A DNA stretch of 61,995 nt, filler included, from Gonapodya sp. JEL0774 (taxonomy: Eukaryota): NCBI GenBank assembly GCA_027604505.1. It is 12 parts of 12 records of this genome, joined end to end, with 100 filler letters (N's around TTAATTAATTAA, not from the genome) between each part and the next. Parts side by side here need not be neighbours in the genome. Positions count along the whole stretch, not along the records: positions 41,481 to 46,544 come from JADIIX010000795.1; 11 more parts are not named here. The stretch is one strand, 5' to 3'. This document shows positions 16,688-53,173 of this stretch, in pieces. The position numbers and the translations under genes are program-made. Under the pieces are notes generated by a model, which made no database searches, was not told the origin of the DNA, and saw only the letters and a program-made list of their open reading frames with translations. How positions within the stretch are numbered: the stretch's first letter is position 1; the number at the start of each line of letters is the position of its first letter.

Positions 16688-17543
16688 ATTTCCAGGGTTC
16701 TGGCGTTCAAGTTGTTGAAATTGCAATGGTGTGGTGCAGGGTGGGTGGTGCGAGTGCGGCTGCACCAGCACCTTTAAGAAGCAGAAATAACGCAGAAACC
16801 AAGCCAGTGACGTTGAATGAACAGTAGCCGGTGAAGGAAACACCATGGAACCCATCCCAATCACACCGGCTAAACTCATCCGAATCCCAATGAGTTTTTA
16901 CAATTTAGCCGGAATCTCGGGAATTAATTCTTTTTTATGGTTAATTATGTTAGTATTGAATTAATAGATGTTTTGCTATTTTTCGTGGAGAAAAGTTGCG
17001 CTGGGTGGGGTGATTGGCTTAGGTGACCGATCGCTGTCGCGGACTGTATACGGGACGGAATAGAAGGAGGCTGGAGAATAAAGGCCACAGGGCTCCTTAC
17101 TGACCAAAGCTCGAAATGGTTTGAATAACCGTACCTTCAGATTAGCTTAGATTTCTACAAGTGTCAGTTCAAAGTTAAAAGGCATTGTCTTGCGGTCACC
17201 CTTGCTGTACAGCACAATCTTGGTAGTGGCTGCCGTCGTCTCTCTCTACACCACACCAGTGATAAGGATCCCATGCTCGGAAAGTCAACAAGCTGCTTGG
17301 CGCCGCTCCTCTTCTGGGAGGCACGACACTAATGCCAAGCGTTCAAACAACGCTTATGAGCTCTGGATACCATACGATCACAATACTCGGGGACAGTCAG
17401 TGCCACGGAGATTATCTTGAAAAGGGTGAAGTGCTATTCAAATGTTTTGTGGGTGATAACACATTGAAAAAGTGGGATGTGCCCCCACCAGTTCCACGTG
17501 GCGCCTCAAGCCAGCGACCCGAAACCGCCCTTAACAACAACCG

Positions 17544-20500
17544 ATGGCAGCTGGAGATGCTAGAGGTGAATCACGTCGTTGATTTTTCAAATTTAATTCA
17601 CCGATCGCTGTTGTTTCCAGGCTCTGTGCCACGCGACGAGAGCGACTACACTGTCGGATGGATATGCGCACTCGACAAGGAACTGACCGCCGCCCAAGTA
17701 TTGCTCGACGAAGAGCACGAGCCATTGCCGTACGAGGACGATGGCGACGATAACGTGTACACTTTCGGGAGGATGGGGGAGCACAACGTCGTGATTGCGT
17801 GCCTCCCCGCGGGCATGATGGGAACCAACTCTGCAGCCGGAGTCGCCACAAAAATGAAGATGAAATTCAGATCGCTTCGTTTTGGACTCATGGTTGGCAT
17901 TGGAGGCGGAGTGCCGAGCGAAGAGGCAGATATTCGGTTGGGAGATATTGTCGTCAGTCAGCCAGACCACGGACATGGCGGCGTTGTTCAGTACGACTTT
18001 GGCAAGGCAACGCCAAGCGGGTTTGAGCGAACGGGGTTCCTCAATGCACCACCGCAAATCCTGCTCAACGCCCTGAGCAAACTCAAGGCCAATCTGCTGC
18101 GGAAAAAGAGTCATTTGGCCGACCATATTTTGAAGTTCAACGAGCTTGAAGAATTTACACGTGCCACTGCGGGACCCGATGTCCTGTTCGAAGCCACGTA
18201 CAACCACGCCGGTGGACCCACCTGCAAGTCTTGTAGTGTGGACAAACAGGTGGACCGCGATGCTCGGTCTGGAAATGCACCGGTCGTTCACTATGGTACC
18301 ATTGCGTCTGGCAATCAAGTTTTGAGGAACGGTGCGGAAAGGGATGCCATCAGCAAAGAGTTCGGAGGCGTGATGTGCTTTGAGATGGAAGCGGCTGGCC
18401 TGATGAACAACTTCCCATGTCTCGTGATTCGAGGCATTTGCGACTATTCCGACTCTCACAAAAACAAAAAGTGGCAGAATTACGCTGCAGCGGTGGCTGC
18501 GGCGTACGCGAAAGAGTTGTTGTCGGTGATTCCACCGACGGATGTGGCGAAGGAGCGCACACTGCATGAAGCGACACGTGGGTAGTTCTATGACTTCATT
18601 GTACAATCAGGCATGCCGAAATTGATGACAAATTATCGGTGAATATGCAGCATCGAAACCCCTCAAACCAGTGTCAAAGTTCTACATTCCATTTTTGAGG
18701 AACTCACATTTCGTCGGTCGTGCAAAATTGCTGAAGGATTTGGAGGACGCACTGTTCGTCGGGAACAAATGCAACAAACTCGCTGTTGTTGGCCTCGGCG
18801 GTATAGGGAAGACGCAAATCGCGCTGGAGCTTGCATATCGAGTGAAGGACACGCATCGCGAATACTCCATCTTCTGGCTACCCGCAATCAGCAAAGCAGT
18901 GTTTGAACAAGCGTGCGGAAAGGTCGCAGAAGAATTGGGGATTGCACCAGCAGACGGACAAAAAGAAGATGTCAAAACCATCGTCCAGCAACATTTGAGC
19001 GGCGGAAAGAGTGGCGCTTGGTTTCTGATCGTGGATAACGCCGATGATATGGACTGTATGACCGATATCACACCTTTTCTTCCGCAGAGTGAAAATGGTC
19101 GGACGTTGTTTACAACACGCTTTCAACAGGTGGCGGTGGAGCTCGCGGAAAACGATGTCTTTGATCTTCAAGAGATGGACATACAGGACGCAGTAGATTT
19201 ATTCCAAAGTTCTTTGATCCGCAAAGAACTTTCGAGCACAGATCCTTCTGTAACGCAGGATCTCCTGAAAGAACTCGCGTATCTCCCGTTGGCAATCAAA
19301 CAAGCGGCGGCATATCTTAATATTAACAAAACAATAACTGTCGCAAAGTATCTGAAAATGCTCAGCAGCACAGAAAAGAGCATGACGAAGCTCCTCAGTG
19401 AGGGCTTCCGCGACGAGACACGGTACGGAGGATCGAAACACGCAGTGGCGACAACTTGGATGGTCTCCTTTGAGCAGATCCAGAAGAACCAATCTCATGC
19501 GGCCGACCTTCTTTCATTCATTGCGTGCATCGAATCAAAGTCCATTCCTCGAAGCATCTTGCCCGTATGCGGGGACGAACTTGACATGGAATCCGCTATC
19601 AGCGCGCTTGTTGGTTACTCGTTCTTGTCAGCTCGTGGATCCGTTCCATCTCAAGGCCCTTTCGACATGCATCGTCTTGTGCACTTAGCTGCCGGAACAT
19701 GGCTTCGCACACATGAAGATCTTTGGGCAAAAGAGACCGCAGAAGTTATCATGCATTTCTCCCAGATTTTTCCGACTGATGAGTGGGACAATCGTTTTCT
19801 GTGGAGGGATTATCTTCCTCACGTCTTGAAAGTACTGGAATACGAGGGTAGCGAAGCTACTACGGAAAAGCTTGTTGAGAGGTACAACCTATGCCTTAGG
19901 GTTGGGTGTTGCTTGATAAAAGATGGGAGGGGAACAGAGGCAATTCCCGTCCTCGAGGAGTGTGTTAAGGGATTGGCTCCAGGAGCAACTAGTGGCACGA
20001 CGCCAGACAAAGATGCTTCATTTTTGAACGCCCGCTACGCCCTCGCACTTGCATGTCTTTCTGGAGGCCAGGCGTCCCGAGCAGTACAGGAGCTCGAACA
20101 GATCGTTGATCTTGGGACCAAAATCTCAGCGAAAAGTGATCCAAAAGAGGTGTTGGAGTGGCAGCTTCAGCTAGCCAGAGCTTATCTCGCCTGCGGCCGG
20201 AAGGATGACGGTATAAAGATGCTTCTCCGCGTCCGGGATTCAGCACCAGACAATAACCCGTTGAAGCTCTTGGCTGCGGACGAGGCTATTAGCATTGGAT
20301 CGTACGGCAGTAGGTTGTGTATATCTACAGCGATGCGATTTTGAACATCTTGCATCATCTCGTGACTACTGCCCTGCATTATAGGGGATTGGGTGGATTC
20401 TGCGAGTATCGTCGGGATAGTGAATTCCACCGATGGTGATCTCAATTTCCAAGGTGAGTTAAATTGTTCCTGAATGTTGATATGGCAGTCAGACCTCAGT

Positions 20501-20641: not shown

Positions 20642-20676
20642 TTAGGGTTAGGGTTAGGGTTAGGGTTAGGGTTAGG
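20642..20676 (+). repeat. Telomere-type repeat (TTAGGG)5 plus TTAGG at the contig end
   Basis: Perfect TTAGGG run to the contig edge, G-strand oriented outward. Confidence 0.9.
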
Positions 20677-41480: not shown

Positions 41481-41617
41481 TAATATACTTTCTCTAATTC
41501 TGAGAGTTGAGATACAGTGAACTCTGCCAGTGTTGGTTCTGATGCTACCATCGAGTATGGACGAGGTGGAATCCTTGGGACGACGACGTCTTTTGGAGAA
41601 ATCATTGTCGAATCCAT
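41481..41617 (-). CDS. N-terminus of a further copy of the 42155-43606 gene (truncated by the contig edge)
   Basis: MDSTMISPKDVVVPRIPPRPYSMVASEPTLAEFTVSQLSELEKVY is near-identical to the start of 42155-43606. Confidence 0.85.
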
Positions 41618-41869
41618 TATTCCACATCTTCGAACACAAAAAAAAAAATGAAAACAAGAGTTCGCTACTCGCGTCGGTTGGAAGTGGTCAGTGTGGATTA
41701 TTGCATCACACTTTTTGGTACTTTTTGTCCAAAAATCTGAGCGGCTTACCTCTTCTCAGAAGGTCGCCCTCTTTCAGAGTTTTTGCTCTGATCTGAGCAA
41801 AAGGTATTACCAGGGTCGTCTTCCTCGGACTTGTTCATTCTGTCCCGTTGCCACACTTTGCGTAACAAA

Positions 41870-42114
41870 TGCCTCGTTTTTGTTCCCACTATGCCGCGCA
41901 TTTACCCCTGTTGCCGCGCAATTAAGCACGTTGCCGCGCGTGCCGCGGAATTTTCCAACTTGTTTCTATATGCACATATATATTCTCTTGCTTTCTCACT
42001 TTTCAATTGGGTACATATAATCATGTGAAGAAATGGCGCGGCATCCGTGGCAGACTAGCAAAACGTGCGGCCGAAAGGGTAAAAACGCGGCATTATCTGG
42101 CTTATAGTGTGGCT
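41870..42114. promoter_or_regulatory. Putative replication origin, copy 2: inverted TGCCGCG-type iteron arrays flanking an AT-rich core
   Basis: Left heptamers start at 41870, 41892, 41912, 41932, 41941. Inverted heptamers end at 42043, 42052, 42072, 42092, 42114. The AT-rich core is 41948-42036. The structure is seen directly; origin function is inferred. Confidence 0.65.
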
Positions 42115-42154
42115 AAAACCCCTGAAAAGTGTGTATATGTGCGGCACGTCACAT

Positions 42155-43606
42155 CTACTCTTCATCGTCATCCATTTCGTCTTGAGTCTTCAATAAGATT
42201 CGCACCCCGCGAACCTTTTTGACATCCTTAGACCCATCCACTGCAAATCTGAGGGTCTCACTCGTGTATTGTTCTGGCATGCTCTGTGTGAATTTTGTTT
42301 GCGTCCAAGACTGCACCATGGGAACTACGTCGGGTGCGTTTACCCTGAGCCAGGTTTTGTATGCTTCAAACAAAACCGCCGTCGGCGTCCCGGCAGGGTC
42401 GTGTGCACGTCTGGGGCGAGTTGCACTGCCGAAAAAGAGGGTCACGGATTCGTTTTGCGAAGAGTGTTTTTGTGCACGCGTCGGACTTTCAAAACTTTTT
42501 TCGACAATGACGTGATCCTTCTGTGCGTCATAAGATGCGACTTGACATCGTGGATTGGTCTCCGGCACCCTCCCAAGATGTGCCACTTCAAGTTGTAGAC
42601 GCAGCTGTTCCACTTTACAACGCTCCTGTTCTACCTTACAACGCTCCTGCTCTGTCCGCTCCCGTTCGATCTCCAACAAGCATGCATCGACAACTGTCGC
42701 GCTCAGCTCTTTTGTTTTACGAACGAGTAACTCGACAGCGTCGTCCCTCGTAAAATCCTTATTGAGACATAAGATTTCGGTCTGGTTCTTTCCAAACTTA
42801 TCTACGATCGTCATGTGATGGTTGCGGACAGTGGGGTGTGTTTTGAACGCTCGCTCAACGTCTGCTGGCTGCAGAGTGCGTTGGAAGTGAACCAACCTGA
42901 AAAGTGGGAACGCTCCGACATGGGCACGAACCCGTTCTTTAAGTTTGCTTGCAAACCCATATTTGTAGAGCTCACCGGGTTTCTCAGTGGTACTCTGAAA
43001 TCCGATCGATCCGAGATACACACCCTGACCATCACCATGTGCAGCTAGGATTTCTTCGTGGCGAGCATCGGCGACAGCACGGGTAATGTGGTGCTGCGCC
43101 TGGATCTTGACGTAGTCCTGGTGCAATTCCAGAATGTGGACGAAGAAGCGACGGACTTCGTCACCCACTGCAGTGGGAGCCTGTATCACAAAGATCTGGG
43201 CAGCTTGCCATGTGAGGAATATTTTCTCAGATGGTCGCCCTCCAAGAGGTTTTCTCCCAATTGGGAGAAAACCTTCCGCTTCGTTGTTCTCAGAAGGGGA
43301 AGATCTAATTATGAAATCTATGCTTTCGACGAGGCGCGAGCGCTCGATAAGTGCCCGTTTTGCGTGGACTTTCTGCCCGTACCCCACGATTGGGTACAGG
43401 CCTTCAAAATCGACGGGATACACTTTCCCACTTGCCTCGCACTCTTCCCGACCTCTGTACAGCTTATCATAATATACTTTCTCTAATTCTGAGAGTTGAG
43501 ATACAGTGAACTCTGCCAGTGTTGGTTCAGATGCTACCAATGAGTATGGAGGAGGTGGAAGACTTGGGACGACGACATCGTTTGGAGAAATCATTGTCGA
43601 ATCCAT
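42155..43606 (-). CDS. Virus-like protein: AntA/MSV199-like DNA-binding domain + T5orf172/GIY-YIG-like domain + coiled coil + copy of the helicase C-terminal domain
   Basis: Intronless, 483 aa. YPVDFEGLYPIVGYGQKVHAKRAL...DF...GGRPSEKIFLT...GDEVRRFF; GVYLG...YKYGFASKLKERVRAH...VERAFK...QTE; ERTEQERCKVEQERCKVEQ; last ~75 aa shared with the helicase. Confidence 0.8.
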   Translation of the reverse strand: MDSTMISPNDVVVPSLPPPPYSLVASEPTLAEFTVSQLSELEKVYYDKLYRGREECEASGKVYPVDFEGLYPIVGYGQKVHAKRALIERSRLVESIDFIIRSSPSENNEAEGFLPIGRKPLGGRPSEKIFLTWQAAQIFVIQAPTAVGDEVRRFFVHILELHQDYVKIQAQHHITRAVADARHEEILAAHGDGQGVYLGSIGFQSTTEKPGELYKYGFASKLKERVRAHVGAFPLFRLVHFQRTLQPADVERAFKTHPTVRNHHMTIVDKFGKNQTEILCLNKDFTRDDAVELLVRKTKELSATVVDACLLEIERERTEQERCKVEQERCKVEQLRLQLEVAHLGRVPETNPRCQVASYDAQKDHVIVEKSFESPTRAQKHSSQNESVTLFFGSATRPRRAHDPAGTPTAVLFEAYKTWLRVNAPDVVPMVQSWTQTKFTQSMPEQYTSETLRFAVDGSKDVKKVRGVRILLKTQDEMDDDEE

Positions 43607-43858
43607 TATTCCACATCTTCGAACACAAAAAAAAAAATGAAAACAAGAGTACGCTACTCGCGTCGGTTGGAAGTGGTCAGTGTGGATTATTGCATCACAC
43701 TTTTTGGTACTTTTTGTCCAAAAATCTGAGCGGCTTACCTCTTCTCAGAAGGTCGCCCTCTTTCAGAGGTTTTGCTCTGATCTGAGCAAAAGGTTTTCCC
43801 AGGGTCGTCTTCCTCGGACTTGTTCATTCTGTCCCGTTGCCACACTTTGTGTAACAAA

Positions 43859-44103
43859 TGCCTCGTTTTTGTTCCCATTATGCCGCGCATTTACCCCTGT
43901 TGCCGCGCAATTAAGCACGTTGCCGCGCGTGCCGCGGAATTTTCCAACTTGTTTCTATATGCACTCACATATTCTCTTGCTTTCTCACTTTTCAATTAAG
44001 TACATATAATCATGTGAAGAAATGGCGCGGCATCCGTGGCAGACTAGCAAAACGTGCGGCCGAAAGGGTAAAACCGCGGCATTATCTGGCTTATAGTGTG
44101 GCT
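43859..44103. promoter_or_regulatory. Putative replication origin, copy 1, about 40 bp downstream of the helicase stop codon
   Basis: Same architecture as 41870-42114 with all heptamers identical. Differences are confined to spacers and the AT core. Confidence 0.65.
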
Positions 44104-44143
44104 AAAACCCCTGTAAAGTGTGTATATGTGCGGCATGTCACAT

Positions 44144-46544
44144 CTACGCTTCATCGTCATCCATTTCGTCTTGAGTCTTCAATAAGATTCGCACCCCGCG
44201 AACCTTTTTGACATCCTTAGACCCATCCACTGCAAATCTGAGGGTCTCACTCGTGTATTGTTCTGGCATGCTCTGTGTGAATTTTGTTTGCGTCCAAGAC
44301 TGCACCATGGGAATAACGTCAGGTGCGTTGACCCTGAGCCAAGTCTTGTATGCTTCAAACAAGACCACCGTCGGCGTCCCTGCGGCCTCGGAAGGTCGAG
44401 GCGCACGCGTGGCCTTTGTAAAAAAGACAGCCAGTGTGTCGTTCTGGGACACATACTCGTTAGTTGCAGACAGCACTGCAAGTGGTACACGGAGACCATC
44501 CCTTGCATAGATATCATAGCGATCTAGGAGAAGACCGAGCAGCGGAAGGCTGAATTCAGGTGTTTTCACTCTGGCTCCAAGCTTGTTGTCAGCCAGATAG
44601 ATGCCCTTTGACTCGTTGACGCGCTCTTCGCTCTCTACAAATTGACTGCTGAAGGCAACGTAGAGCAACCTACGTGGCATTGCTGTGTTCCTTGACGACC
44701 CCTGTGAGAACTTTGGTGCCGTGTTCACGGGAAAACACAACTTAAATTGAGGTCGGTACTGAACTGGTGCCTTGTGTAACGCTCGCGCACTAATGTCATC
44801 GTCACCAGTGAGCGACTTGACGATCTCCTCATCCAGGTGTGAATTCTCGCCGACCTCTGTGACAAACACTGCACGGGCTGTTCGCAATTGCGCCAGTACC
44901 GGGCTCGCAGCCTCTACGTCGCGCTTTGCTCCTCCAGATATCAGCAACGCACTTTTGACGGTCTGCGCATATCCTCCTAGAACACTCTTCAGCGCATTCA
45001 CAACGAGCGATTTCCCGTTTGCACCGTTACCCACGAGAAAGACCAGCTTCTGCTCTCTCGTAGTGCCACTGAGCATTGTTGCGGCGTATGTCAGCATGAA
45101 ATTGCGTACCGCTGCGTCTGGAAGAATCTTGGCCAAGACATCCTCCACTTTAGCTCGCAAGGCCCTATCATGAACACGCTCATAATCAAAGTCGTATCCA
45201 GTAGTGATCGTGACGTAATCGTCGGGGCGCCCAGGTCGGAAACAATATGTGCATCCATCACTTTGTGAATCGAGATCAATAACACCGTTGTCAAAGGCCA
45301 GTATGTGTTCGAGGCGATCTCGTAGTTTGACGAACGACAAGCCCTGCATCTCGTAGTGGGACTTCATACGCTCAATGACTGCATTGCGGAAAGACGTCTT
45401 GTCCAGTTGGTTGAACATCTCTCTCACCCACTTTGCCCTTTGTGTAGCTTCGGCATCGCCGCGCAAGCGAACAGCTTCACGTTGGTAGTAGGAGCACGCT
45501 GCCTCATACAGGTCGTATACTCTCTTTGATCCGATAGTTTTGTCGATGATGGCATTCTCGCTGCGCTGTATCCATCGATGCATCGAAGGTTCGAACGACC
45601 ACCACTCGTTCTCGACAAGAGCAGCTTCATCCGCACACACCGCCGTGATAAGTGCCGCCACACGTGCATTGTTGCCGCTCAGGGAGTGTACGAACAGCCG
45701 ATTTAGATCGGGGTTCCCAGGAATGAAAACATGTTCTTCGCCCTGAAACGCGGTCCAAGAGGCAGTAGGCTCTGCGGCTAATGTCAAGTTGAACTGCTGA
45801 TTGACGACCATGAAGAAGTTCCCCAACCGTGGGTACTTCTCTGCAGAGATGGGCATCGAACCCAAAGCTGGTGATCGATATTTACAGCCTTGACCATCAC
45901 ACTGGATGGAGAGTCCATCTTTGCTCGTTGTGGCTACTAGACGACCGTTTCCACAGAATGTACACAGTTTGCGTCCGAAGTACGTATCCAGGGCACCTTT
46001 GAATGCAGACATGTCTGGCTGGTGTACCATTTCCATGTTCTCGTTACCAGGGTGAGCTTCATTGATGAGCGACACTGCGTCCAGACAAGCTTTGCCCACA
46101 AGCTCAGGGTCCACAACTGGCTTTGATGGAAACATCTCCCCGAAAGCCTTCCTGATATCGGATGTCACCTGGCGTGCACCCCACGTTTTTTCGCGACATT
46201 CGCCATCGTGGCAGCGCCGAGTCACGTCCCCACTCGAGCTCACGAAAATATACTGTTTGTTTCCTTTATGTGGAGCTTTTTTGAAGCAACAGTCCAACAG
46301 GCTTGTGGAAACGGCATACCCCATACCATCACCAAGCCATTTGGTACTACCAACGTACGTTGGCAAGATCCCAAAGCTTTCCATGATAAAATCTTTCACC
46401 ATATCAGGTGTTGTGGCAGTGTCAGGTCCATCGAGTTGAACTCGCCCCTGTCGCTTGACAGTACTCCCGGCGCCACTTCCACTCTCACGCAAAGCTTCCA
46501 CAAGCCAGACAGGCATTTCAGCAAGCTCACGTTCCCACGGTGAC
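44144..46544 (-). CDS. D5/P4-alpha-type primase-helicase (SF3), intronless, 5'-truncated
   Basis: Open to the contig edge. PWERELAEMPVWL resembles the end of a Prim-Pol domain. UL52/PrimPol-type Zn finger C.F...H..N..Y...CHDGEC, second Cys cluster CTFC...C....C, D5_N LAFDNGVIDL...FRPGRPDDYVT, Walker A GNGANGKS, Walker B VFVTE, motif C FPVN, Arg finger MPRRL and a C-terminal helical domain LFEAYKTW. Confidence 0.93.
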
Positions 46545-50023: not shown

Positions 50024-51507
50024 CTATGACTTTGAACGGCCCATCACCTTCTCAAGCACCTTTCCCGCCGCAAACTTGATAAAAAACCCCCATGACATGT
50101 ACTCCTTCATCTGCTTCACGAGCCCCATGGGTGTATCCTCAGTGAGCAAGAACAGCGCCAGATTGTCCTTGCTCTCCTTAGCCAGGGGTTCCACCCGGGC
50201 GAACATGGCCCGTTCATACTCCGTCACCGCGAGTTCGAGGCTACTTGAGTGCCTGAGCGACGCGAGAACCTCCGCAAGGCTCGCTGAATCTGCAAGTGCT
50301 TGGTTAACGCCTTCACCGGCAAAGGGGGACATGAGGTGAGCCGCGTCGCCCACGAGAGTGATCATGGCGGCGCGAGGTGGAGACCCAGGTGTCGGCGTCG
50401 GGCGAGACCAAGAGTGGCCGACTGGGAGGGCGAAGATCTTGCGGGGAGTGACGGGGTTGGTGTTGGCTGTGATGAGTGAGAGAAGGACCGGACTCCAGTT
50501 GGGAAACAGCGACGCGATGTGCGCGTTGACGGCCTTGATGTCCGATGCGCCCGCAAGGGAGTTTTCCGGAGCGTCCAGGAAGTCCTCGGGCACCGCGAGA
50601 GACGCGTAGATCCTGACAGACCCGCCAGAGTTGCGCTGGATGAAGAATCCCCGGTGCTGTTCAAGGGCAATGACCATACCCCGACCTGCAAGCGCGCCCG
50701 CGGTTGGGAAGTCCGGGGAGCCGGGGAGTGGAATGGAGTCGGCGTTGTCGATGGTGATGTCGTAGAAGGAGATGCCCGAGTACTCGGGCTTGACTTGCGT
50801 GAGGTGGGATCGGGTGCGAGACCAGGCGCCATCAGCGCCGACAATGAGATCGGCCTGGAGAAGTTGAGAATCGTGGACATTGGATTCCATGTTGGGTCCA
50901 TCGCGAGCCTTGGCGACTCCGTCGGTGACAGTTTTGAGGCGAACAGCGTATGGCCCACCAACGGGATCCTCCGTTATCTCTGCCACCTCAGTACCCCATC
51001 GAATAGTTCCTGGAGCAAGAGAGTCGATGAGAAGGTCCCTCAGCTGGGTGCGGTCGATCTCTGGGCGGAGGAACATGGTGCCAAAGATGGGGCTGGGACC
51101 GCCCGAGCCGACGTCTGAGTACACGACATTGAGGTGTTTGTCAGTAACTTTGAGGTCTGAGGTATATGAGGAGCACAAGAAGGTCAGTTCATGATAACTT
51201 GGCTAAAATCAACTCCACCAAGGACTTCCGCCTTAACAGGGCAAAGCTCACCTTCGCCTTCGGGCCTGGCCAGTTTCATGAATTCGGCGTGTAGGCCAGC
51301 CATCCTGAGCGCCCACTGGCCCGACTCATTGTGCAGATCCAACGATCCACCCTGCGGTCTGTGGTGGCGATGGGGATCACGTTCGATGACGACGACATTT
51401 GTTGCACCCTTCAGTTGCAATATGCGGGCAAGAGCGAGACCAGCGGGGCCGGCGCCGATGATGAGGATGCGGAGGGAGAGAAGGGGCGATGGAGAAGTCG
51501 CGAACAT
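50024..51507 (-). CDS. FAD-dependent monooxygenase, TetX-like family, one intron
   Basis: IIGAGPAGL, RPQGGSLDLH, RPEIDRTQLRDLL, DLIVGADGAWS and TLVGDAAHLMSPFAGEGVNQALAD. Confidence 0.92.
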
Positions 51508-53173
51508 ATTGAGTACGTTGGTTGACAGTGGGTCGAAGAAAGGTCAGATCTGGCGGTGAAACTCGGCACGCTTGATGATTCGGGAACTGGGAGCTCACCA
51601 AGGAGACGACTATTTATAGATGGGGGGGACGCAATCAGTTCTGATGGGCAAATCATGGCTGTCGGATAATCGACTATTTCCCTCTGATGGACACAGGCGA
51701 CGNNNNNNNNNNNNNNNNNNNNNNNNNNNNNNNNNNNNNNNNNNNNTTAATTAATTAANNNNNNNNNNNNNNNNNNNNNNNNNNNNNNNNNNNNNNNNNN
51801 NNAGGCCGGAAGAAGAGTAGACACACAGAATAATGTGTACAGACAATGCGTGGGTGTGCGCCGAGTACTACTTGTCACAGTGTCGCTTTGCTTAGCGGAG
51901 AAAGCCCAATATATTGCCACAATGAGGACCCGCCGTTGTGCACCACACGGGGATCCTGGAGTCAGAAAAGCGAAGAGCACACACAGACGTTTCGTTTTAG
52001 TCACAACTCGGAGAGATGCCACTCTCGCTTCTCCCTGGCGTTTTTGTTTGCTGTGAGTTTGAAGTCACCTTTCCAGCGATCTAGGTCCCCTGAACTCGAC
52101 CAGAAACGTCGCTCCGTTTCCCAAATTCACCAAGCTCGCTGATCCAGCACCGAAAGGGGCCGATTCGTTCAGTTCGCTTCAGAAGGGCTTTCAAGCCAAG
52201 TCCACCACTCACCAGAAGTTTCCCTGTGCTTATTTCCCAGTCCTCTGAATGCCAGATATCCAGAGTTTATCCGAATTTGCCGAGATTTGTGGTGTTTCCT
52301 GACCCGATTGAAGGAGTTTTCGTGGGGGCTTCTTCGATTTGGGGTTGTGACAGGCTGAGTGTCCAGTATTACCACCATCACGCGAGTGCGTCCCTCACAA
52401 ACCTGCAACCACACAAATGTGCCAAATTCTAACCCGCTGCATTCAATCTAAGACAGAAAGGTATTTATCTATTTCTGATTTTGAGTTTGTTGCTCTGAAC
52501 AAGTCTTTGCTTCTTTTCCCCAAAACGTCCCAAAAAGGATATATGTATACCGGGAGGATTTAGCCGCGTTAAACGCAAAGCACCAGCCAACGCTTGCTTT
52601 ACTCTAGTATCATCCATGTGTGGCTGCGCAGTTGATTTTCGTTCCAATTGCCCGTTCTGAGGAGTTGCCGTACGAAACTCATTTCCGATGTCATATCTCC
52701 GATTTCCCAGTTCGCAACCCTGCCCGGCTTCAAATGGACAGCATTGAGTATTATCACTTGTATTTGAAACGTGAGAAACGACCCCAGCTGGGCTGGCGAC
52801 CCTCAGTGATGTGCTGGGCCGCCGAGCAGACACCGGCAAAGTCCCGATAGAGGTGTGACCTGGTGTGCCGGTGACCCAGCCGGAGAAACTTAAAATTAAT
52901 ATTATATTGGGAATAATGATATTTCATTCAGATGTGAACGAACAAAACTCAAGGTCTACTATAACGCAGGTGCACGGTTTCACTCCAACGGAAAGTGAGC
53001 TACGATCCTTCGCGGGAGCAAAATGTGAACGACAGAGGGCAAATATATCATCATTTACGTACATATTCTCCATCCCGAGATCCGCACACATTCGATCTCA
53101 TGCTTACATTTGTTGGTCTGTACCTGCTGCATCTCTCGCGTCGCGCTGGCTGTGGGTCTAGCTAGTAGCTAGT

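What the first reader, a model, noticed from the sequence alone, without database searches (positions are those of the whole stretch)
41481..46544. Candidate undescribed replicon in a fungal assembly: primase-helicase, cognate iteron origin and a nuclease-like partner with the same C-terminal domain
Seen: on the minus strand the order is helicase > ori-like element > AntA/GIY-YIG-like gene > second ori-like element > start of another copy of that gene. All are intronless in an intron-rich genome. Known: in phage P4 and staphylococcal SaPI/PICI elements a primase-helicase recognises iterons through its C-terminal domain, and in SaPIs the origin lies just 3' of rep as inverted iterons around an AT-rich stretch. 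D5 helicases and AntA/T5orf172 proteins are also common in NCLDVs and Polinton-like viruses. Inference: a eukaryote-associated pri-rep-ori module belonging to an endogenous virus, satellite or plasmid, with origin amplification in tandem.
Basis: partly seen in the sequence, partly recalled or inferred. Interest (0 to 1): 0.9.

Follow-up and report, generated by a model that had tools for sequence, protein, structure and literature searches.

The report
Virus-type replication origin module in fungus
A short orphan piece of DNA in a fungal assembly carries a viral-type helicase gene, a mirror-image repeat array that is likely its start site for DNA copying, and a predicted nuclease that ends in a copy of the helicase's own tail, the same layout found in uncultured lake giant viruses.

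Summary
The finding is one whole 5,064-bp contig with no host flank. It carries a 5'-cut D5/SF3 helicase, two mirrored GCCRC arrays around an 89-bp AT-rich core, and an MSV199/T5orf172-like ORF ending in the helicase's tail, arranged as a 1,989-bp tandem unit.

The primase lies off the contig; paralogues carry Prim-Pol. Eight paralogous helicases and three partner paralogues are named as Gonapodya proteins. Three partners end in three different helicase tails.

Giant-virus relatives (Imitervirales IM_18 where classified) have the same module. Arrays follow 38 of 47 helicases, against 5 of 67 other D5 genes. They keep the same 9-then-20-bp spacing, and the repeat word changes with the helicase tail, not its core. 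Eleven distinct loci also carry a tail-bearing partner.

Best reading: a SaPI-style self-loading helicase and origin of viral ancestry, plus an Odn-like nuclease that likely trades tail-and-origin cassettes. Binding, cutting, integration and the carrier (giant virus, Polinton-like virus or capsid-less replicon) are untested. I found no printed description, but earlier scan notes report the giant-virus form.

The parts
41481..46544 (.). Whole contig between two N spacers; 49.7% GC, CpG observed/expected 1.02; both ends fall in sequence that has close paralogues
   Evidence: paralogues
44144..46543 (-). D5-type SF3 helicase, open at the contig edge (799 aa): Cys/His zinc region (res. 85-116, Herpes_UL52-type in relatives), Cys4 region (194-220), D5_N, Walker A (505), Walker B (559), motif C (604), C-terminal tail. 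Prim-Pol domain is off the contig
44144..44446 (-). Helicase tail, ~100 aa, predicted winged helix and likely origin-binding domain
   Evidence: Pox_D5 E 0.03, below cut-off; helix-strand-three helices-strand in a model of mean pLDDT 89
43839..44134 (.). Array 1, likely origin: six GCCRC sites (steps 32, 22, 20, 20, 9), an 89-bp 70% AT core at 43937-44025, five opposed sites (steps 9, 20, 20, 43)
43720..43810 (-). Relic of an MSV199/antirepressor-like coding stretch (RGRPSEK) in the spacer; repeated at 41731-41821
   Evidence: (family D9)
42155..43606 (-). ORF2, 483 aa: MSV199-like N-terminus (~60-157), T5orf172/GIY-YIG-like domain (~193-290), coiled coil, copy of the helicase tail (85% identical over 98 aa)
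41850..42145 (.). Array 2, copy of array 1 with identical site spacing
41481..41617 (-). 5' end of a second ORF2 copy, cut by the contig end; 5 amino-acid differences in 45 codons
42386..44374 (-). One 1,989-bp repeat unit: distal helicase tail, array, spacer, ORF2 up to its tail

Best explanation
The contig holds a D5-type helicase gene, mirrored repeat arrays and a tail-sharing partner gene, which together likely form a virus-derived replication module: the helicase's predicted winged-helix tail would bind the GCCRC repeats and load hexamers on both sides of the AT-rich core, and a Prim-Pol domain, seen only in paralogues, would prime synthesis. The 1,989-bp unit of tail, origin and partner gene is duplicated in tandem (shown) and is likely a movable cassette that enters or leaves by recombination through the tail sequence. 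The partner is predicted to be an origin-directed T5orf172 nuclease: the borrowed tail would take it to repeat arrays, and cutting of rival arrays followed by repair would spread the nuclease and swap tail-plus-origin pairs among related elements. The family is multi-copy and partly decayed in Gonapodya. Whether the carrier is an endogenous giant virus, a Polinton-like virus or a capsid-less replicon is open. Odds by step: array is the helicase's origin 0.85; viral (Nucleocytoviricota/Polinton-like) ancestry 0.85; partner is an active origin-directed homing nuclease 0.5; resident in the fungal genome or cell 0.75.
For: Helicase motifs are intact and the fold matches ASFV PrimPol, poxvirus E5 and giant-virus D5. 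The arrays exceed chance and are unique in the window. In relatives, 38 of 47 distinct loci have a 7-mer at least 4 times in both orientations behind the helicase or its partner, against 3 of 47 intragenic controls and 5 of 67 other D5 loci. 23 of 34 two-armed arrays share the window's 9-then-20-bp step. The word follows the tail: partial correlation 0.23 (1 of 2000 permutations) against 0.06 for the core (362 of 2000); five disjoint pairs with 95-100% identical cores but 21-56% identical tails have different words. Three partner paralogues end in three different helicase tails: P0002 like P0001, P0010 like P0013/P0011 (E 3e-15, 5e-13), P0003 like P0020 (E 1e-12). 19 of 75 giant-virus loci (11 distinct) have a partner ending in a helicase tail, 7 of 10 scanned with T5orf172 above cut-off. 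L128 is a cassette-free allele of L093/L123 and the cassette lies between ~240-bp tail repeats. Precedents: SaPI Rep and ori (PMC9371898) and Odn (PMC8263062).
Against: Tail and array are neighbours, so joint inheritance alone can give co-variation; the pairs are not phylogenetically independent. Here, and in five giant-virus cases (75-85% tail identity), the partner carries its own helicase's tail, so a nuclease would be aimed at its own origin. ORF2's nuclease label is weak: no Pfam hit for ORF2, E 0.14 for P0003, a weak profile score, no useful profile-profile match to the giant-virus partners. The giant-virus relatives are distant (23-26% identity to P0034), and the helicase tree groups the window's protein with its neighbours at only 0.66 support. 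9 of 47 family loci lack an array. The contig shows no host junction, integrase or capsid gene.
Confidence: 0.6

Rival explanations
1. Same origin, passive partner: MSV199/Bro-N/T5orf172 genes are multi-copy shufflers that land behind the helicase by recombination, and the tail is a by-product kept alike by gene conversion. The protein does nothing specific at the origin.
For: The identity gradient (proximal part diverged, distal part near-identical) is the same in the window and in L092, L093, L097, L101, L123. Cassette-free alleles exist. Partner relics and truncated copies are common.
Against: In-frame tail fusion recurs with three different tails among Gonapodya-named proteins and with Bro-N, MSV199 and unrelated N-termini in viruses. 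In the distal tail, 6 of 9 codon differences between the window's two copies are silent.
Confidence: 0.2
2. The partner regulates or assists its own origin: it competes with the helicase for the repeats (copy control) or nicks beside them to start recombination-dependent or rolling-circle copying, which would also generate the tandem units.
For: Its distal tail is nearly identical to the helicase's here. A nicking role for T5orf172 beside accessory helicases was suggested in PMC11296320.
Against: 56 of 75 loci have no tail-bearing partner, including near-identical alleles, so it is dispensable. In L104 and L143 the partner's tail does not match the array behind it; the helicase's tail does.
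Confidence: 0.15
3. Carrier rival A: a fragment of an endogenous or co-cultured giant virus, in which this is an accessory helicase locus as in Imitervirales IM_18.
For: All context-bearing relatives lie among giant-virus genes; three records hold 2-4 D5_N genes each. NCLDV genes are reported in Gonapodya prolifera (PMC5294986). ORF2's best Atlas cluster is Nucleocytoviricota (0.91).
Against: Eight divergent helicases on separate 3-11-kb contigs are more than any searched bin holds. Their helicase cores are only ~30% alike while the zinc regions are 44-59% alike for all but one near-identical copy. None of the sampled L001-L079 giant-virus D5s falls in their group.
Confidence: 0.35
4. Carrier rival B: the replication end module of a family of endogenous Polinton-like viruses.
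For: Primase-helicase plus GIY-YIG end modules with repeats are described for Polinton-like viruses, with distant helicase hits in chytrid fungi (PMC11296320). Multi-copy, divergent, host-like GC and contigs of 3-16 kb fit.
Against: No capsid, packaging ATPase, integrase or terminal repeat on the contig. No Gonapodya entry in the searchable supplements of PMC10120064. No Polinton-like relative turned up in the IMG/VR scans.
Confidence: 0.33
5. Carrier rival C: a capsid-less plasmid-like or satellite replicon of about 6-7 kb.
For: Eight of ten near relatives outside Gonapodya lie on contigs of 5.9-7.3 kb (the other two 3.9 and 4.9 kb). Unchecked scan notes describe one-gene iteron cassettes in giant viruses.
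Against: Contig lengths may reflect assembly limits: a 7,016-bp relative that could be read proved to be a giant-virus fragment. Partner paralogues lie on 13.7- and 16.3-kb contigs.
Confidence: 0.25
6. Bacterial, phage or plasmid contaminant.
For: Orphan, intronless contig; the Prim-Pol domain and iteron layout are familiar from prokaryotic elements.
Against: Best phage and plasmid matches are 23-30% identical and none covers 80%. No relative in GTDB genomes. Fragments lie on 357-kb and 183-kb Gonapodya prolifera contigs.
Confidence: 0.05

Closest known systems
SaPI/PICI Rep or PriRep5 with its ori (PMC9371898, passages read)
   Same: Primase-helicase with a C-terminal winged helix; 6-12 short iterons right behind the gene, opposed across an AT-rich core (11 here).
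   Different: Eukaryote-associated; D5/SF3 lineage with UL52-type and Cys4 zinc regions; no integrase or helper-phage genes; a tail-bearing nuclease partner; binding untested.
Odn (ICP1 Gp88), origin-directed T5orf172 nuclease (PMC8263062, passages read)
   Same: T5orf172-like domain joined to an origin-binding domain that mimics a replication initiator.
   Different: Odn mimics a rival satellite's RepA and is shown to cut. Here the tail is that of the adjacent helicase, the unit is tandemly repeated, and cutting is untested.
Accessory D5-like helicases with T5orf172 genes in entomopoxvirus terminal repeats, and Polinton-like virus end modules (PMC11296320, passages and section 9 part 1 read)
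   Same: Non-core D5-like helicase beside T5orf172/GIY-YIG genes and repeats; homing and origin roles proposed.
   Different: The text I read describes no shared tail, mirrored iteron array or tail-word co-variation; other hosts.
Mycodnaviridae and NCLDV genes in zoosporic fungi (PMC13533422 passages; PMC5294986 passages)
   Same: Giant-virus DNA, including D5-like helicases, in early-diverging fungi.
   Different: No marker gene on this contig links it to that family; Gonapodya is not named in the main text or readable supplements of PMC13533422.

Membership tests
SaPI/PICI pri-rep-ori | AAA+ helicase with C-terminal winged helix, primase fused or adjacent | tested here: met
   Helicase and tail: (winged helix predicted only). 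Primase in paralogues only:
SaPI/PICI pri-rep-ori | 6-12 iterons directly downstream, opposed across an AT-rich core | tested here: met
   6 + 5 GCCRC sites around 89 bp of 70% AT
SaPI/PICI pri-rep-ori | Rep binds and melts the cognate ori | not testable with these tools
   Needs binding and unwinding assays
SaPI/PICI pri-rep-ori | Bacterial chromosomal island with integrase and helper phage | tested here: not met
   No close phage, plasmid or GTDB relative; works like it, not a member
Odn-like origin-directed nucleases | T5orf172 domain with GIY-YIG motif | tested here: inconclusive
   Motif pattern present (GVYL 195, YKYG 214, Arg 226, Glu 251); Atlas 0.91; Pfam E 0.14 in P0003 only
Odn-like origin-directed nucleases | Fused domain resembling an initiator's origin-binding domain | tested here: met
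Odn-like origin-directed nucleases | Iteron-dependent cleavage of a rival element | not testable with these tools
   Tail is the element's own here; foreign in L104, L118, L131, L132, L143
Accessory primase-helicase locus of Imitervirales IM_18 | Primase + UL52-type zinc + D5_N + SF3 + variable tail followed by a 9/20-phased array | tested here: met
Accessory primase-helicase locus of Imitervirales IM_18 | Located among Nucleocytoviricota core genes | not testable with these tools
   Contig ends inside the module; no genome or reads held
Polinton-like viruses | Major capsid protein, A32 ATPase, integrase, terminal repeats | tested here: inconclusive
   None on the 5-kb contig, which is too short to exclude them
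Mycodnaviridae | Placement by capsid, PolB and other core markers | not testable with these tools
   No marker on the contig

The most novel reading that the evidence does not exclude
An early-diverging fungus harbours a family of capsid-less, SaPI-style replicons that compete through re-codable origins: each carries a helicase whose swappable tail reads its own repeat word, and nucleases that capture those tails act as origin-directed homing weapons. This would be a new kind of eukaryotic mobile element, and the same module would supply the first defined iteron origins for giant viruses.
Probability: 0.2. Interest if true: 0.9.

Novelty: new variant of a known kind. Interest (0 to 1): 0.66.

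Why it matters
My literature searches found no paper joining iterons with giant viruses or Nucleocytoviricota (open-access library only). This module gives a defined candidate origin, a candidate binding domain and a natural series of tail-word pairs, so origin recognition can be tested with a ~100-residue domain and a 300-bp DNA. The fungal-associated copy shows that the 9/20-bp geometry survives a complete change of word, GC content and primase type. The three partners with three tails make a compact test of whether Odn-style origin mimicry exists among eukaryotic viruses and mobile elements.

Tried and rejected
No whole genome is held and no sequencing run was listed, so depth, junctions and expression were not examined. 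Scans for close relatives of the helicase or ORF2 found nothing in IMG/VR, JGI metagenomes or GTDB. Searches returned only distant phage-type genes (7 of 7 and 3 of 3 loci; I read 4 of the 7 and all 3). DNA for the Gonapodya-named paralogues and for the 4-7-kb-contig relatives could not be fetched. The ORF2 model was unusable (mean pLDDT 37) and the profile comparison with giant-virus partners gave nothing. No Rfam match. Assembly artefact rejected: the two copies differ at 31 of 905 positions. A pure displacement model (old tail pushed onto the partner) fits L118 (partner tail 75% like L120's helicase, 16% like its own) but not L104 and L143, where the array matches the helicase's tail. Gonapodya was not found in the searchable supplements of PMC13533422 (6 of the files could not be read), PMC11296320 or PMC10120064; unread files may bear on prior description. 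PMC13524828 supplements had none of 6 bin names. PMC12747079 passages were not relevant. No complex prediction was run because the open question is protein-DNA binding.
Full report
WHAT IS THERE. The window is 12 unrelated contigs of about 5 kb joined by N spacers, and the finding is one whole contig, 41481-46544. Other contigs carry eukaryotic, fungal-type genes (PNP_UDP and NB-ARC-TPR, RanBP1, Got1/Sft2, F-box) and a telomere-like repeat. They say what the assembly is, but they are not linked to this contig. On the minus strand the contig has a 799-residue frame open at its edge with D5_N, SF3 and P4-primase matches. A model of mean pLDDT 89 matches ASFV PrimPol, poxvirus E5 and giant-virus D5 proteins. 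There is no primase domain on the contig; paralogues carry Prim-Pol just ahead of the point where it is cut.

THE ARRAYS. Behind the stop codon lie six GCCRC sites with steps 32, 22, 20, 20, 9, then 89 bp of 70% AT (contig 50%), then five opposed sites with steps 9, 20, 20, 43. The count exceeds all 2000 shuffles for that word, and all but 1 of 500 shuffles when any 7-mer may be chosen. This mirrored layout occurs twice on the contig and nowhere in the other 11.

THE PARTNER AND THE DUPLICATION. ORF2 (483 aa) has no Pfam match itself. Its best Atlas cluster is MSV199/T5orf172 of Nucleocytoviricota (0.91). A profile of its family finds an MSV199 protein over residues 60-157 and a GIY-YIG-patterned ORF over the nuclease region among fetched viral loci. 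I treat the nuclease label as likely, not shown. The tail, the second array and the second ORF2 start form one duplication with a 1,989-bp period: 905 bp with 31 differences, preceded by about 70 bp of older, diverged homology. The copies differ, so this is not a collapsed assembly.

THE FAMILY IN FUNGI. Searches returned eight helicase-family proteins named by their source as Gonapodya sp. JEL0774, on contigs of 3.1-11.3 kb, and three ORF2 paralogues on 5.1, 13.7 and 16.3 kb. Two fragments lie on 357-kb and 183-kb Gonapodya prolifera contigs. Some copies are truncated. The paralogues share the zinc region at 44-59% (one copy at 94%) but the helicase core at about 30%, which points to module exchange. 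P0010 is nearly identical to ORF2 for about 410 residues and then ends in a tail like that of helicases P0013 and P0011; P0003 ends in a tail like P0020's. So tail capture happened at least three times. I could not read the DNA of these contigs, and I do not assign the window to a named record.

RELATIVES WITH CONTEXT. A full-library search with P0007 and a helicase-core tree of 119 sequences (proteins up to P0100 and the odd-numbered loci L001-L079) placed the window's protein with the Gonapodya-named proteins and with proteins on 3.9-7.3-kb contigs, at weak support (0.66). A more distant branch with the same zinc regions yielded 86 loci. They lie among giant-virus genes such as PolB and topoisomerase II. 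Four bins found in the PMC8575486 table are all Imitervirales IM_18; 8 of the 11 names I looked up were absent. Three of five records searched hold 2-4 D5_N genes, so this is an extra helicase. Phage and plasmid matches are weak and GTDB has no relative.

THE SAME MODULE IN GIANT VIRUSES. Of 86 loci, 75 had a closed helicase frame and 20 of these had a second frame with a helicase tail; one is a second full helicase (L162), leaving 19 loci, 11 distinct. Of 10 partners scanned, 7 have T5orf172 with Bro-N or MSV199, one has weak matches and two have none. The cassette lies between repeats of the tail-coding sequence, and L128 is a cassette-free allele of L093 and L123. Partner tails are 75-85% like the local helicase tail in L092, L093, L097, L100 and L123, and 16-53% in L104, L118, L131, L132 and L143. 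Of 49 distinct helicases, 47 had enough downstream DNA; 38 of these have a 7-mer at least four times in both orientations, against 3 of 47 intragenic controls and 5 of 67 other D5 loci. Thirty-four arrays are two-armed, with cores of 35-97 bp, and 23 show the 9-then-20 step seen in the window. The word follows the tail: of 28 pairs with tails at least 75% alike, 23 share 6-7 of 7 letters, 4 are the same word in a shifted register and 1 differs; five disjoint pairs with 95-100% identical cores but 21-56% identical tails have different words. In L104 and L143 a partner with another tail lies between helicase and array, and the array matches the helicase. Caveat: tail and array are linked, so joint inheritance explains part of this, and the permutation test ignores kinship.

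HOW IT LIKELY WORKS. Shown: gene order, arrays, duplication, tail sharing, co-variation. From established knowledge: SaPI Rep proteins bind 6-12 iterons right behind their gene through a winged helix and are thought to load on both sides of an AT-rich core (PMC9371898, passages); Odn is a T5orf172 nuclease that mimics an initiator and needs iterons to cut (PMC8263062, passages). Inferred: the array is this helicase's origin (0.85), and the partner is an origin-directed nuclease whose cassette moves by recombination through the tail (0.5). The main difficulty is self-targeting. Odn's cutting appears sensitive to site spacing, so the element's own array could be bound but not cut; that is a guess.

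WHAT IS KNOWN. Accessory D5-like helicases beside T5orf172 genes and repeats are described for entomopoxviruses and Polinton-like viruses, with homing and origin roles proposed (PMC11296320, passages and section 9 part 1). NCLDV genes are reported in G. prolifera (PMC5294986, passages), and giant viruses in zoosporic fungi (PMC13533422, passages). Searches for iterons with giant viruses or Nucleocytoviricota returned no paper; related searches returned nothing on the shared tail, judged from listings. Earlier AI notes of this scan describe the giant-virus origin and the tail-bearing nucleases several times; I saw them after my own tests, and they are not independent support. They held nothing on a fungal copy.

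VERDICT. Real, non-random and of likely viral ancestry; a new variant of the SaPI-type helicase-origin design with an Odn-like partner. New here are the fungal association, the multi-copy family with three captured tails, and the shared 9/20 geometry. The carrier is unresolved: giant-virus fragment 0.35, Polinton-like virus 0.33, capsid-less replicon 0.25, contaminant 0.05. Interest 0.66.

Noticed in passing
window 43247-43274: Perfect 28-bp palindrome inside ORF2, within a 10-residue stretch missing from paralogues P0003 and P0159; a near-palindrome also lies in the spacer relic.
   Followed up: no
window 43720-43810 and 41731-41821: Decayed piece of an MSV199/antirepressor-like frame in the spacer, suggesting an older partner gene.
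   Followed up: partly
window 17266-20341 and 20642-20671: PNP_UDP and NB-ARC-TPR frames (fungal NLR-type, label recalled) ending next to a telomere-like hexamer repeat.
   Followed up: no
window 50024-51559: Intron-containing FAD-binding monooxygenase gene (Pfam FAD_binding_3); by recall it resembles bacterial flavin monooxygenases, a possible horizontal transfer.
   Followed up: no
proteins P0011 and P0013: Helicases with a C-terminal extension behind the tail that looks by eye like a PD-(D/E)xK nuclease; not tested.
   Followed up: no
L131:12524-13180 and L132:12495-13262: Tail-bearing partners without T5orf172, placed after the array; by eye a different nuclease-like family.
   Followed up: partly
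L118:2780-6806 and L120:2357-2430: Giant-virus locus with Prim-Pol-type N-terminus, 42-bp inverted repeat and a partner whose tail matches sibling L120's helicase; L120 keeps a short remnant of that partner.
   Followed up: yes
L021:5334-5519: A canonical-type D5 locus also has a second tail-like copy about 1 kb downstream.
   Followed up: no
proteins P0014-P0018, P0021, P0022, P0133: Near relatives on contigs of 5.9-7.3 kb, two of exactly 7,291 bp from different sources; worth checking for complete small elements.
   Followed up: partly
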